A DNA stretch of 64,000 bases. Source: Carcharhinus amblyrhynchos (lineage: Eukaryota). Made by a program: the position numbers. The stretch is from the NCBI GenBank assembly GCA_965287045.1, contig OZ336887.1:21266001-21330000 (forward strand), written 5' to 3'. Positions 9,001 through 15,000 of the stretch are shown here, piece after piece; the stretch's first letter is position 1, and every line of letters begins with the position of its first letter.

Positions 9001-12000
9001 ATGCTGTCAGTGAAAGAATACAAAATCAGGCTGAAGAGTTTGCATTTCAAGATAACTTTGCAGGAGAAGACAGAGGAGATAAAGGCTGGACTGCAATGTA
9101 TCTACAAGGCTTCGGTTGAGTTGAAAAGCGGCAAGAAACTGGCGAAGATTCTGGAGGTAACAGACTAATTCCTGGTAAATTCAATAAAGTGCAGTTCACA
9201 TTTCAGTCTCTTTCCATGAGGCAAGACAACAACAACTGTGATTGAAATTACTATCATATTACTGCAGCATGGTGCTGTGGTTTACTTTGGGTACTATGTA
9301 CCCCTAAGGTACAGGACCAGCCCTCCGGTGCTCAGAAACTTGTTGGTTCATGTCTCCAAAGTGTGAACTGACAATCCTGACAGACACTACAATGCAGTAC
9401 TGTGCTTACATTAAACCGAGCCTCATCTGCCCTCTCAGCTGATGGGAAAGATCACACTATACCACTATAGAATAGCGGTGAATATTAGTGATGTTATGGC
9501 AAAGATATTCCTTAACTAATACTATAAATTGTTTATGGGACCTTACTTTGTTTGCGGGGCCTTTGTGTTTCTGTATGGTTCTCTGTTTGTGCGTTTGTGT
9601 CTGTGTATGTCTCTGCAGGTCTCTTCCTCTATGTGGCGTTGTACTGTCTATCTGTGTGTCTCTCTCCTTGGGTCTTTGTCTCTCTCATTTGGGTCTTTCC
9701 TTATGTATATGTAGGTCTCAATGAGATGTCATTCTGGAGCCCCATGTATCTAATGGGATATGCAGTGGGGAGTAATCCAGTGGAAGAGTCCATGCATAGA
9801 CAGACAATCTAGAGCAGGACCTGTTGGCTTCATTTATTCAAGTGTTGTGATTTTCCAGCACGTTTATTTCTCCTCAGTAATTGTTTTTTCTCTGACAGTT
9901 TGTCCTTGCAATGGGAAATTATCTCAACAATGGTCAACCTAAGAGCCCCAAAACCACGGGATTTAAAATTAATTTCCTAACAGAGGTGAGCAACTGAAAC
10001 TGATAACAGCTGGGTTCAAATGGAATTAAGTAATGAGTTGGTGTCAATGTTAGTGGAGACTCCCAAGGAGAAGGGAATTGTTTTTGTTTTTGGCTGCTGT
10101 GTTAGAGGGAAGATGCATGATTAATTAATCAATTGACAACCCTAGGGTGGTGGGGGGAGAGAGTAGTACTGAATGGCAGCAGCAGTTGCTGCAGGAGAAA
10201 AAAGGGAGTGTTCAATTATGTTGGAGAAGGGTAATTAATAATATTAGCAGCCATTGGAAATGAAAATGGAATGAATGGTTATCATATTGATACTCCCTGG
10301 GGGAGGGGAGATTTGTGTTAATTAGGCTAGTGTGCTTTGGGGAAAGGGAGAAGAGTGGTTCATTGTACTTGCCTTCTAAGGAAGAAGTTAACCATGTTGG
10401 AAACATCTCTAATTTGAGTTTCAAAAGCATTCTCATTTGACACATGTATTTTTCTCCCAGCTTGACACCACTAAAACTGTGGATGGGAAATCTACTTTCT
10501 TGCACATTCTTGCCAAATCACTGAGCCAGCACTTTCCTGAGCTGCTGGATTTTGCCAAGGAGATTCCAACTGTGGCACTTGCTGCAAAAGGTCAGTTAAA
10601 CGCATTAAGAGTGACTACCTGAAAGGGAACCAAGTGCTTGTACTCAGATTATGAAGTGACAAGTCATTGATTTCCGAAAACTTTGCATTTTGTTAAGAAC
10701 CCATGAGCTAGAACTTTGAGGCCCTTTACCCAGATGATGTCAAGGCGTTTGAGTGTTGTGATTGTTCTCATTTGGGTGAGAGATGACTATTCTGTCACAC
10801 TGCTGCCTTGAGATTTGCAGATAGCTTTAAGGGTTCAGGAGGTGAGATACTCCCCATATCCAGCCTCAATCCTGTCTAAAGCCAAAATGTTGATATAGTT
10901 GGCCCAGTTAAACTTCTGACTAGTGGCAAACCCCAGATATAAAATAGAGGGGTTGGCAGTGCGTGCTGTTGAAGGCCTTGAAAAATTTATTTGGCGATGG
11001 TCATTACCTGTGACCATTAGAGTTAGGTGGAAGGATTTTTATTGTAAAAATTTTATACCTGCAGTATGTGACTATTATTTGTGTCTGTGTTGTTCTTTAT
11101 GGTAAAATAAGTTTGCTTGACATTTCCAACTTAACAGTAGGGTTATTGCAGATATTCCGTTGTTTTCAAAGACAAGAATAAAAATTGTCCAGTGGCTCAA
11201 ACATTTGCTGTTCACTTCCCAGTTACATTACTAAAAGCGTATCCAGATCTCCGAAGGCAAGGATAGACACTGTTAAACTTATGGAGAAGTATGACTCAGC
11301 CAAATTCTAAGATACAAGAATTGGAACCGTTCAGGGCAGCAAAAGAATACAGAAAAATATAGAACTCTCCCTTTTTTTCAGTTAATCAGAGAACGATAAC
11401 TACAGAAATTATTGACATCCACACAACCAGGAAGGACATACAGACAGCTTGTGAGAACATGGCAGTCACCGATGAAGACAGATTCTCTGCAGTCATGACC
11501 GCATCCTTCCAGACAGAAAAGATGGAGATTGTCATTCAATGTATATTATCTTTGTTTATACTGCATATGTCATTGTTATGTGATCTCTTGGATTGTTTTT
11601 TATTACTTGAAGAAATCAGAGAGGTGTTGCCTAGAGTATCTTTTTTTCCTTTTGCTCCTTGATTTTGTTTTTTTTTGCCTCTCCCAGGAGACTGCAGAGG
11701 GATGGTGAGTAAATGTGAAGTCATGATTGCCTGGCCTTTATAGTGTGTTGTGGGCTTGATGGACCGGTTGTTTTTCTCTTGTCCAACAATTTTGTTTGTT
11801 GAGAGATATAGTTACCTTTACACTATTAGCATCCAGCACTTTCAATCCAACGCTTTCAGGTCAGGTCACTTTTAGCTCCCTTCATGCCAATGCTATAGTT
11901 AAGAAAGCCTACCAATGCCCCTACTTTCTCAGGAGGCTAAGGAAATTTGGCATGTCCGTTACAACTCTCACCAATGTTTACAGAAGCACCATAGAAAGCG

Positions 12001-15000
12001 TCCTTTCTGGATGTATCGCAGCTTGGTATGGCTCCAGCTCTGATCAAGACTGCAAGAGACTACAAAGGGTTGTGAATGTAGCCCATTTTCCCATCTATTG
12101 ACTCTGTCTACACTTTCTGCTGCCTCAGAAAAGCAGCCAGCACCCCGCAAATACACTCTTCCACCTTCTTCCATCGGGAAAAAGATACAAAAGTCTTAGG
12201 TCACGTACCAACAGCCTCAAGAACAGCTTCTTCCCTGCTGCTATCAGATTTTTAAATGGACCTACCTTATATTAAGTTGATCTTTCTCTACACCTTACCT
12301 ATGACTGTAACATTACATTCTACAGCCTCTCCTTATCCTCTATGTACTCTATGAAGTGTGTTTTGCCTGTCACGCACTCAAGAAACAGTACTTTTCAGTG
12401 TATTCCAATACATGTGACAATAATAAATCAAATTTAAAAAAAAGGAGCAGAAAGTTCAGAAAGAGACTAAAGCTAGATCTCTACTGCCAAATCAAATGCT
12501 CCGAGGTCAGGTTTGGCATAGGTAAGGTGCCTAGGAAAATTCCCTTGACTCTGTAAGTAATGTGTGCTATTTTGTACAATATGGAGTTGTATAAAGTCCA
12601 TGCACAGAGTAATACAAAATGTCTGGGAAACAGGAGTTTGTTACATAAGAGAGTAAGCATTTTCTATGCTGGATATCAAGTAGACCAAATGTTTGACAAA
12701 AGTGGATGAAGCAGATTGATAATTTTTTTTTTAATGCAGCAAATTATGGTTTGTATCACTTGTAGCTCAAGCTTTGAAAGGTTCTCTGTGTTCTCAAGTG
12801 CTGTTATTGTCTTAACTGGAGTGTCAGGCATTCCTGGGGGATGCACAGCCTGTCATTGCTTCCCTCGACTCCCTGCAGAATCGAGCCATTGAGGAGTTCA
12901 ATAAAGTCTCAACTTTTTTCGGAGAAGATTCAAAGATGACTACGACTGAAGCTTTCTTCGGGATATTTGCAGAATTTATAACAAAATTTGAGGTAAAGCT
13001 TAGTTTGGAGTAAATCTGTGTAGCTATTAGCCACCAATCACATTGAACATTGTCAAAATGTTGTGGCTCAGTAAAATCCTATTTCTCTCAGTTATTTTAT
13101 GAAATATCTCTACTGCAAAGATAACAATCTCTCATCTTTCTTTTAGTTTTGATACATGCTTAATAAAAACAAGGGAAATAGGTGGAGACATGTATGGACA
13201 AATAAAGGGATATATGATACACATAAAATATAATTTAGGGTGAACTGAAGTTTATTGAAAGTGGAGGATAGGAAGTCAGCCAGGACAGTATTGGAACAAT
13301 TAGAACTGGAGGTGATGAAGACTGGAGGTGAAAAAGTTTCAGTAGCAGATGGGTTAAGGTAGGTGTGGAGGGGAGAATGTAGGGAAGTGATATTAGGGAG
13401 GTGAACATAGGTGGAGGTTTTAATGGAGTTTGTATGGAATTGGAAGCGCAGCTTAGGGTCAAATAGAATGTCACTTTTCTGAACCATCTAATTCAACACA
13501 AGAAGCATCATGAGTTGATGGTTAACATGGTGAGCATGCAAAATTTGTGGTGGGGGTTGAAGTCAAAGAATTTAGTCTTCCCAGTGTTTAGCTTGACAAA
13601 GGGAAGGGTCTTGTAAGAATGTATGTCCGATAAATGCTGATAGAACTGAGGCCTCAAGGGCTCAAAAAAGGTGGTGGAGAAGTAGAGTGGAATGTCATTG
13701 CTATTCACCTGGTAGTTAAACTCATGTCTATGAACGATGCAAAGCTGCAACATCTAGATGAACAAGAAGGGGACAAGGATAGATCTTTTAGGGTCTCTGA
13801 GGTGAAGATATTGGGATAGTAAGAGAAGCCATTGTAAGAAATGCTGCAGTTATGATTGGATAAATGAATAGAATCTGGCAAGGGCAGGAGGAGAGGCATG
13901 ATTGACTGCATCAAAGGCTGCAAAGGGGGTGAGTAGAAAATGGTGCAGTATGATGGCATTCACAGAGAATATCATTGATGACTTTGGTTATTGCCATTTT
14001 GATGTTGTTAGAAGGGGAGTTGTGGGATAGATCATCATGAATCAACCATCACGAGTGGCTTCACAGACGAAAAAGAGTGTGCAATATGGAGTAAATATGT
14101 AACACGTATACGTCATATGTGAGGTATTGCACATTAATATTATTTATTACAGATACTTTTGCATGGAGCATGGGGAATGTATGATGTTGTATAAGATCTG
14201 TTCAGGAAGAAACATTTGAGGCCACAGGTTAGCTGATTTCTAATATACTGTACATGGGGAGAATGTGACAAGGAAATATAATATACATTGGGGAATACAC
14301 TATATAGCTATCTGATGTACACCAAGGGAAAATGTGATACATACGTGGGAAAAATGTTCAAGGATGTATGATATACATACAAAGAAAATGGTACACATGA
14401 TATATTTAGAGATAGTTATTTTATTATGTGTATAATAATGAGCTATGGATCGAGGTTAATATATAACTGAACACATGTCATACATCCAAGGAAATATGAT
14501 AGTTACATTCCTTCCCTGCCTTTTGCGCATAATGTTTAATAATCCAGGGAGCAAACATTTGGAATGAATTCTACTATACAGCATTATTGAGATCATAATA
14601 TTGTGTCTGAATGTGGAAGATGGTGGTGGGAAATGTGTAGAATGTTTGTCTAAGACAGCTGTTGAGTTCAAAGAAGAATGACATTCATAGTGAATAATAC
14701 AACAGAATTGAAAGGGTGTGATTATAGCTGGACTATAGCAATGAGAAAGGTAATAAAATTGATCACCTGCTCAAGGTGAATCCATTAGATAGTGAGCAGA
14801 AGTTGAAAAGGAATGTGATTTGATAATCAGAGGATGAATCAAGAGGGAGTTTAAAGTACAGCTTGTTTATGGAGATGGCTGATATCCAAATTTCAGTTTC
14901 TGCTTCCTGATGGCATAGTTGGTCTTAATATCAGTAGTGGGGAAAATGCTAGAGTCTATTATAAAGGATGTGATAACTGAACACATAAAAAATAAAGGTA

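What the first reader, a model, noticed from the sequence alone, without database searches (positions are those of the whole stretch)
11501..12827. Minor-spliceosome (U12-type) intron with a rare GC-AG boundary in the delphilin FH2 domain
Seen: the upstream exon ends ...FSAVMT (ACC at 11500) and the next begins AFLGDAQP (12828), aligning without gaps to recalled delphilin. No credible GT donor sits at this point. The intron starts GCATCCTTCC, the U12 donor GTATCCTT with a T-to-C change at +2. It ends TGTCTTAACTGGAGTGTCAG, with a U12-like branch site 12-13 nt from the AG and no pyrimidine tract. Established: U12 introns are mostly GT-AG or AT-AC and tolerate some terminal variants; GC-AG is usually treated as a U2 subtype. 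GCAT begins both the intron and the next exon, so aligners can slide this junction. Inference: it may be rate-limiting, and retention would read through to a stop at 11662 and truncate FH2.
Basis: partly seen in the sequence, partly recalled or inferred. Interest (0 to 1): 0.78.

Follow-up and report, generated by a model that had tools for sequence, protein, structure and literature searches.

The report
Rare GC-AG minor-spliceosome intron in shark delphilin
One intron near the end of a shark's delphilin gene carries the signals of the rare "minor" splicing machinery but starts with GC instead of GT, a subtype that is uncommon yet already described in other animals.

Summary
The window holds the 3' half of a cartilaginous-fish delphilin (GRID2IP) gene on the + strand, not human. 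Ten exons lie between 1130 and 17554. Protein homology fixes the junction 11500/12828: the two exon matches overlap by exactly one residue.

Of the 9 introns, 8 are ordinary GT-AG. This one reads ACC|GCATCCTTC ... GTCTTAAC-11 nt-AG. Its donor matches the U2-type consensus at 2 of 9 positions, against 6-8 of 9 for the others. It matches the U12 donor core at 6 of 7, against 1-3 of 7. A CTTAAC branch site lies 12-13 nt from the 3' end. By my estimate, both motifs falling by chance at a junction fixed by homology has odds of about 1e-6.

U12-type GC-AG introns with this same GCATCC(T) donor were described in 2006 (PMC1557818). They make up 0-4.3% of U12 introns across the 13 vertebrate rows of a survey table, under 1% in 9 rows and zero in zebrafish (PMC7367187). 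One of them works in a reporter, though less well than GT-AG (PMC8280824). A published table lists mouse Grid2ip as a minor-intron gene (PMC6717393).

So this is a new member of a known rare kind. No RNA data, raw reads or orthologous DNA could be checked.

The parts
1130..17554 (+). 3' half of a delphilin (GRID2IP) gene: 10 coding exons and 9 introns, with stop TGA at 17552-17554
   Evidence: tblastn of P0006 and P0005 against the window gave 10 collinear + strand HSPs at 67-98% (P0006) and 69-98% (P0005) identity. The lowest values belong to the last HSP, which runs into intron sequence. Boundaries were read.
11382..11500 (+). Upstream exon (119 nt), ending ...FSAVMT on a whole codon, so the intron is phase 0
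11501..12827 (+). The intron in question, 1327 nt, with GC-AG termini
11501..11509 (+). 5' splice site GCATCCTTC. It equals the U12 donor consensus (R)TATCCTT at 6 of 7 positions (+2..+8) and differs only by C at +2. The exonic -2 and -1 positions are CC.
   Evidence: The motif matches the GCATCC(T) definition of PMC1557818.
12809..12816 (+). Branch-site-like GTCTTAAC, 6 of 8 to TCCTTAAC with an exact CTTAAC core. The A's at 12814 and 12815 lie 13 and 12 nt from the 3' end.
   Evidence: The stated optimum distance is 11-13 nt (PMC3584512). TCTTAAC-type branch sites appear among listed minor introns.
12826..12827 (+). 3' terminal AG. An earlier AG at 12820-12821 lies only 5-6 nt from the branch A.
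12828..12992 (+). Downstream exon (165 nt, 55 aa), the C-terminal end of the FH2 domain
   Evidence: Pfam FH2 PF02181: E 1.3e-08, 34.9 bits against a cut-off of 34.8, profile positions 319-372 of 372..
11660..11662 (+). In-frame TGA reached if the intron is retained, after 53 extra residues
11880..11999 (+). Decayed repeat fragment inside the intron, seen as a Pfam PF09004 match in an open frame. It is not part of the splice signals.
   Evidence: E 5.7e-09, residues 41-80 of the frame 11760-12098. That this Pfam family picks up retroelement tails in fish is my recollection.

Best explanation
Intron 11501-12827 is a U12-type (minor-spliceosome) intron of the rare GC-AG subtype, in the second-to-last intron position of a cartilaginous-fish delphilin gene, within the C-terminal part of the FH2 domain.

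Proposed mechanism, inferred from established knowledge. The U11/U12 di-snRNP binds the donor and the branch site together. U11 snRNA pairs with the intact TCCTT core downstream of +3. The C at +2 falls within the first three intron bases, which do not pair with U11 and are instead read by the U11-48K protein. U12 snRNA pairs with TCTTAAC, bulging one of the two A's. The AG 12-13 nt downstream is then chosen by distance, without a pyrimidine tract.

The C at +2 probably lowers efficiency without abolishing splicing, so this already slow class of intron may be slower still here. Retained transcripts would stop at 11660-11662. They would lose the last 78 codons, including the end of FH2.

Shown here: the gene, the junction, the motifs and their improbability by chance. 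Inferred: which spliceosome acts, the efficiency, and that the C is genuine and fixed.
For: (1) Homology fixes the junction to within the GCAT slide.

(2) The donor matches the U2-type consensus at 2 of 9 positions, against 6-8 of 9 for the 8 other introns of the gene. It matches the U12 core at 6 of 7, against 1-3 of 7.

(3) There is an exact CTTAAC with its branch A 12-13 nt from the 3' end. The stated optimum is 11-13 nt (PMC3584512, passages).

(4) The chance estimate for both motifs together is about 8.5e-7 (22/64000 x 11/4456).

(5) The exonic -2 and -1 positions are CC, not AG. This fits true minor introns rather than the 'minor-like' class (PMC11347168, abstract passage). It also matches the remark that GC-AG U12 candidates have non-U2 exonic bases (PMC1557818).

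(6) The subtype is defined in print by this very motif. [quoted passage not shown] The fly case is CG16941 (PMC2831892).

(7) A minor GC-AG site (LZTR1) responds to depletion of a minor-spliceosome protein and is spliced in a P120 reporter (PMC8280824, passages).

(8) Mouse Grid2ip is listed as a minor-intron gene, with donor GCT|GTATCCTCT, branch site GTTTCCTTGACC and a 2055-nt intron (PMC6717393, supplementary files 1 and 8; header).

(9) All 10 exons are intact and 67-98% identical to shark delphilins, so the gene is evidently expressed correctly.
Against: No transcript evidence of any kind was available. T at +2 is otherwise close to invariant in U12 donors, as in every row of the table part seen. 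A T-to-C base error or a polymorphism would therefore produce the same picture.

The branch site matches the strict 8-mer at only 6 of 8. Two U2-type introns of the same gene carry equal or better 8-mer matches: i4 has TCCTTTAC (7 of 8) at 17 nt and i2 has TCCTTATT (6 of 8) at 21 nt. The 8-mer alone therefore does not discriminate. The weak pyrimidine tract is shared with the U2-type intron i9.

The intron is phase 0. From recall, minor introns are under-represented in that phase; only alludes to such a bias.

I could not verify that the mouse minor intron lies at the same position. The same table marks Grid2ip 'MouseOnly', meaning the human gene is not listed as a minor-intron gene. No PWM or intronIC score was computed.
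Confidence: 0.8

Rival explanations
1. It is an ordinary GT-AG U12-type intron, and the C at 11502 is an assembly or base error, or one allele of a polymorphism in the sequenced animal.
For: A single T-to-C change separates the donor from a perfect GTATCCTT. The mouse gene's listed minor intron is GT-AG. GC-AG makes up under 1% of U12 introns in 9 of the 13 vertebrate rows of the survey table (PMC7367187 Table 2).
Against: The window has no N and no sign of poor quality around the site. By my estimate, the prior for a real GC-AG among U12 introns (roughly 0.2-1%) is well above the per-base error rate of current assemblies. No reads were available to settle it.
Confidence: 0.12
2. It is a U2-type GC-AG intron removed by the major spliceosome.
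For: GC-AG is far commoner among U2-type introns, at about 0.8% of them (PMC1557818; PMC7367187). TTAAC also satisfies the loose U2 branch consensus (recalled).
Against: U2-type GC donors compensate with a closer match to the rest of the U1 consensus (PMC1557818). Here only 2 of 9 positions match, -1 is C and +5 is C. There is no pyrimidine tract between the branch site and the AG.
Confidence: 0.04
3. The true transcript uses other splice sites, and the 11500/12828 junction is an artefact of alignment.
For: The only nearby in-frame alternatives are a GT at 11492-11493, which would delete VMT, and an AG at 12820-12821, which would add two residues (read).
Against: The homology HSPs abut with a one-residue overlap and no gap. 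Five annotated cartilaginous-fish proteins, and the consensus of the 12 full-length vertebrate proteins in a 14-row alignment, keep ...VMT.FL... uninterrupted. The alternative donor GCA|GTCATG is poor. The alternative AG lies 5-6 nt from the branch A.
Confidence: 0.03

Closest known systems
U12-type GC-AG introns (SpliceRack class of Sheth et al. 2006, PMC1557818; examples are LZTR1 in human and mouse and CG16941 in Drosophila)
   Same: The donor is GCATCCT. The exonic bases before the donor are non-U2. A U12-type branch site lies a short distance from a terminal AG.
   Different: The gene and lineage differ: delphilin in a cartilaginous fish. The branch site is a TCTTAAC variant rather than the perfect consensus. 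No transcript or functional data exist here, whereas the LZTR1 site was tested in a reporter.
Mouse Grid2ip minor intron (MIDB, Olthof et al. 2019, PMC6717393, supplementary tables)
   Same: It is the same gene family member (delphilin), with a U12-type donor core TATCCT and a U12 branch site.
   Different: The mouse donor is GT (GCT|GTATCCTCT) and the branch site is CCTTGAC. I could not verify whether it is the same intron position. No mouse protein or DNA was at hand, and the supplement look-ups closed.
U2-type GC-AG introns
   Same: The terminal dinucleotides are GC-AG.
   Different: Those have near-perfect U1 complementarity outside +2. This donor has 2 of 9 matches.

Membership tests
U12-type (minor-spliceosome) intron | Conserved 5' splice site /RTATCCTT | tested here: inconclusive
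   Positions +3..+8 (ATCCTT) are perfect and +1 is G, but +2 is C instead of T: 6 of 7 over +2..+8. No PWM score was computed.
U12-type (minor-spliceosome) intron | Branch site TCCTTRAY close to the 3' splice site (optimum 11-13 nt; 8-30 nt accepted by SpliceRack) | tested here: met
   GTCTTAAC at 12809-12816 has an exact CTTAAC core, with the A's 12-13 nt from the end. TCTTAAC variants are listed among accepted minor introns.
U12-type (minor-spliceosome) intron | No distinct polypyrimidine tract | tested here: met
   Pyrimidine fraction is 0.56 and the longest run is 5. The spacer TGGAGTGTC is rich in purines. This is not unique, because the U2-type intron i9 is equally poor.
U12-type (minor-spliceosome) intron | Removal depends on U11, U12, U4atac and U6atac | not testable with these tools
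   This needs RNA or minigene experiments.
U12-type (minor-spliceosome) intron | Orthologous intron is U12-type in other species | tested here: inconclusive
   Mouse Grid2ip has one listed minor intron, but its position could not be matched. No eukaryotic genome collection was available.
U12-type GC-AG subtype (Sheth et al. 2006) | GCATCC at +1..+6 (GCATCCT in all published candidates), plus a branch site at a suitable distance | tested here: met
   GCATCCTTC at 11501-11509 and the branch site at 12-13 nt, against the definition seen.
U2-type GC-AG intron | Strong match to the U1-complementary consensus outside +2, and a pyrimidine tract | tested here: not met
   2 of 9 matches to CAG|GTAAGT, against 6-8 of 9 for the 8 GT-AG introns. 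The tract is weak.
Delphilin / FH2 formin gene | FH2 domain and collinear similarity to annotated delphilins | tested here: met
   The downstream exon alone hits Pfam FH2 at E 1.3e-08. Ten exons match shark delphilins. The best named hits are delphilins of sharks and rays at 95-98%.

The most novel reading that the evidence does not exclude
The C at +2 is fixed in this shark lineage. The intron is then a GT-to-GC subtype switch within an ancient minor intron of the formin FH2 domain. It would be orthologous to the mouse Grid2ip minor intron, and perhaps shared in position with one of the two minor introns of each Diaphanous gene. In that reading, delphilin output in cerebellar neurons is unusually sensitive to minor-spliceosome activity, through retention and the stop at 11660-11662.
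Probability: 0.15. Interest if true: 0.4.

Novelty: new member of a known kind. Interest (0 to 1): 0.25.

Why it matters
Annotation pipelines commonly treat GC-AG as U2-type. The GCAT repeat across the junction also lets aligners slide it, so this intron is easy to misplace or misclassify. Recording it correctly adds a non-mammalian example to a class known from only a handful of introns per genome. It also gives a natural test case for how the minor spliceosome tolerates C at +2. It does not alter the current understanding of splicing.

Tried and rejected
1. AT-type and shifted junctions. The four other slide positions give CA-GG, AT-GC, TC-CA and CC-AT. None fits either spliceosome.

2. Nearby alternative sites, namely GT at 11492 and AG at 12820. 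I rejected them because homologues show no deletion or insertion.

3. Finding a mouse or other mammalian delphilin to test whether the listed mouse minor intron is the same one.
   - The first search returned sharks, rays, bony fish and birds in its best 120 of 394.
   - It was then rerun on the contiguous stretch 11381-11503 and gave only 3 shark proteins.
   - I abandoned this line.

4. Literature on GRID2IP and minor splicing. 'GRID2IP' with 'minor intron' gave 0 papers. 'GRID2IP' with 'U12' gave 4 papers, none relevant judging by title and abstract start. The one held supplement of PMC11347168 has no mention of GRID2IP.

5. Supplement of PMC10639083, which holds counts of termini in conserved minor introns. 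That table may hold better frequencies for GC-AG.

6. Rfam scan of the whole window: 0 matches.

7. Pfam scan of 27 of the 67 long open frames. This gave one match above the curated cut-off, the repeat fragment in the intron. Two further matches (Amnionless, E 0.007; U5_2-snRNA_bdg, E 0.003) fell below their cut-offs. No neighbouring gene was identified.

All searches were exon by exon or with contiguous window DNA.

9. No PWM, intronIC or MaxEnt score was computed, because the matrices were not available.
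Full report
**What the window is.** The 64-kb window has no N and is not human.
- The downstream exon (55 aa) finds delphilins. The best named hits are Scyliorhinus torazame (98%), Hemitrygon akajei, Carcharodon carcharias and Rhincodon typus (96%), and Narcine bancroftii (95%). 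Bony fish and birds follow at about 70-76%.
- tblastn of the Rhincodon and Carcharodon proteins against the window gives ten collinear + strand matches from 1130 to 17551. One weak stray match lies on the other strand (E 0.06-0.08).
- The downstream exon alone reaches Pfam FH2, covering profile positions 319-372 of 372.
- So the window carries the 3' half of a cartilaginous-fish delphilin (GRID2IP) gene, and the finding lies at the C-terminal end of its FH2 domain.

**The observation.**
- The upstream exon (11382-11500) ends on a whole codon with ...FSAVMT.
- The intron runs 11501-12827. It starts GCATCCTTCC and ends TGTCTTAACTGGAGTGTCAG.
- The next exon starts at 12828 with AFLGDAQP.
- Read-through meets TGA at 11660-11662 after 53 extra residues.
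- The shared GCAT allows five equivalent placements of the junction. Only GC-AG has a terminal AG.

**Is the junction right?** It is set by homology, independently of any splice motif.
- The two tblastn matches cover query residues 1175-1215 and 1215-1269. They overlap by one residue, and nothing is missing or inserted.
- Five annotated cartilaginous-fish delphilins read ...[11 protein letters not shown]....
- The consensus of the 12 full-length vertebrate delphilins, aligned together with the two window exons, keeps ...VMT.FL..AQP....
- The only nearby in-frame alternatives are GT at 11492 and AG at 12820. They would delete three residues or add two, and no homologue shows either.
All searches used single exons or contiguous window DNA.

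**Comparison with the gene's other introns.** I read all nine introns in the window. Two ends were off by one base and were corrected.

| Feature | This intron | The other 8 introns |
|---|---|---|
| Termini | GC-AG | GT-AG (8 of 8) |
| Match to U2-type donor consensus | 2 of 9 | 6-8 of 9 |
| Match to U12 donor core, +2..+8 | 6 of 7 (miss is C at +2) | 1-3 of 7 |

- The exonic -2 and -1 bases here are CC.
- At the 3' end, GTCTTAAC matches the U12 branch consensus at 6 of 8 with an exact CTTAAC core. Its A's lie 12-13 nt from the intron end.

Some results cut the other way.
- The 8-mer match alone is not distinctive. Intron i4 has TCCTTTAC (7 of 8) at 17 nt and i2 has TCCTTATT (6 of 8) at 21 nt, and both have clear U2-type donors.
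- The poor pyrimidine tract (0.56, longest run 5) is shared with i9 (0.56, run 6). The other seven introns have 0.61-0.89 and runs of 6-15.
- The donor is therefore the discriminating signal, and the 3' end is merely consistent with it.

**Chance.**
- ATCCTT occurs 22 times in 64,000 + strand positions.
- CTTAAC with its second A 10-15 nt before an AG occurs at 11 of 4456 AG sites on the + strand and 3 of 4268 on the - strand.
- For a junction fixed beforehand, the product is about 8.5e-7.
- RYATCCTT is not over-represented in the window overall: 16 matches against 12.2 +/- 3.4 in shuffles.

**What is known.** The consensus motifs I used are recalled. They agree with the table rows and texts I saw.
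- **Sheth et al. 2006** (PMC1557818; passages) searched GC-AG introns for GCATCC at +1..+6. Most had a branch site at an optimal distance, and the authors named them 'U12-type GC-AG'. They list 4 in human, 4 in mouse and 1 in fly. All have GCATCCT, most have non-U2 exonic bases, and LZTR1 is conserved between human and mouse.
- **Lin et al. 2010** (PMC2831892; passages) list the fly case, CG16941.
- **Moyer et al. 2020** (PMC7367187; section 17 with Table 2) state that almost no U12-type introns are GC-AG. Across the table's 13 vertebrate rows the share ranges from 0 to 4.3% of U12-type introns, under 1% in 9 of them. Examples are 0.61% in human, 0.47% in mouse, 0.97% in chicken and 0 in zebrafish, with higher values in a few genomes.
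- **de Wolf et al. 2021** (PMC8280824; passages) count GC-AG among G-type minor introns. They report that the LZTR1 GC-AG site was affected by CENATAC depletion and was outcompeted by a minor GT-AG site in the P120 reporter.
- **Turunen et al. 2013** (PMC3584512; passages) make several relevant points:
  - U11 does not pair with the first three intron bases, which U11-48K reads.
  - The optimal distance from branch site to 3' end is 11-13 nt.
  - U12 introns lack a distinct pyrimidine tract.
  - Non-canonical termini splice, often with reduced efficiency.
  - Slow removal has been proposed as rate-limiting.
- **Olthof et al. 2024** (PMC11347168; abstract passage) separate 'minor-like' introns by an AG at -2/-1. 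This intron lacks that AG.

**The gene in minor-intron catalogues.**
- In the supplementary tables of Olthof et al. 2019 (PMC6717393; file 1 part 1 and passages from files 1, 2, 3 and 8), mouse Grid2ip is a minor-intron gene. Its donor is GCT|GTATCCTCT, its branch site is GTTTCCTTGACC, and the intron is 2055 nt.
- It is marked 'MouseOnly' although an orthologue exists.
- The same files list Diaph1, Diaph2 and Diaph3 as minor-intron genes in both species. The interval list (file 8) shows two introns for each. The Diaph1 donor is ACC|ATATCCTTT.
- I could not establish that the mouse intron lies at the same position as this one. No mammalian delphilin came back from the searches, and no eukaryotic genome collection was available.
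- That one Diaphanous minor intron sits at the homologous FH2 position is only my recollection. It is untested.
- Text searches gave no paper linking GRID2IP with minor introns (0 papers; 4 unrelated papers).

**Mechanism.** The most likely reading is recognition by the U11/U12 di-snRNP.
- The intact TCCTT core pairs with U11, and later with U6atac.
- U11-48K contacts the GCA trinucleotide.
- U12 pairs with TCTTAAC. The T in place of the consensus C would give a G-U pair, which is my inference.
- The AG 12-13 nt downstream is used, and the AG at 5-6 nt is too close.
- The C at +2 is expected to cost efficiency.
- Retention would truncate the protein by 78 codons. The stop lies far upstream of the last exon junction, so such transcripts would be candidates for nuclear retention or nonsense-mediated decay (inference).

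**Rivals.**
- **Base error or polymorphism at 11502.** This cannot be excluded without reads. I rate it about 0.12, because real GC-AG cases make up a few per thousand of U12 introns, which is more than typical per-base error rates.
- **U2-type GC-AG.** This is unlikely, because such donors compensate with a strong U1 match and this one has almost none.
- **A different junction.** This conflicts with the gapless homology.

**Verdict.** The kind is already known, so this is a new member of a rare known class. Interest is modest.

**What stayed unchecked.**
- RNA evidence, raw reads and orthologous DNA from other species.
- PWM-based classification.
- The supplement of PMC10639083, whose look-up closed.
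- The closed collections (metagenome and viral contigs) were not needed and were not touched.

Noticed in passing
window 8974-8984 (3' end of intron i4, 7806-9000): GCATCCTTTAC lies 17 nt before the AG of a U2-type GT-AG intron whose donor is CAG|GTGGGT. It holds a 7 of 8 match to the U12 branch consensus and is the only other GCATCCTT on the + strand. It may be chance or a relic. I did not pursue it.
   Followed up: partly
window 11640-11713, inside the intron: There is an exon-like decoy. A long pyrimidine run ends in AG at 11686-11687, followed by 17 nt and then a good U2-type donor, ATG|GTGAGTAAA, at 11705. It could act as a cryptic site if minor splicing fails. This is untested.
   Followed up: no
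window 11760-12098 (+), inside the intron: An open frame has a Pfam PF09004 (ALKBH8_N) match at E 5.7e-09. I take it for the decayed tail of a retroelement common in fish genomes (recalled), in sense orientation within the intron.
   Followed up: partly
window 20900-21900: A G/C-homopolymer-rich stretch includes a 31-bp minisatellite of 13.5 copies at 21473-21893 (96% matches). It accounts for the GC peak of 0.554 and the strong skew at 20-22 kb. No gene signal was found there.
   Followed up: yes
window 17555-64000: Downstream of the delphilin stop, I found no Pfam match above the curated cut-off in the 19 of the 43 long open frames that I scanned, and no Rfam family. Short exons of a neighbouring gene would have been missed.
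   Followed up: partly
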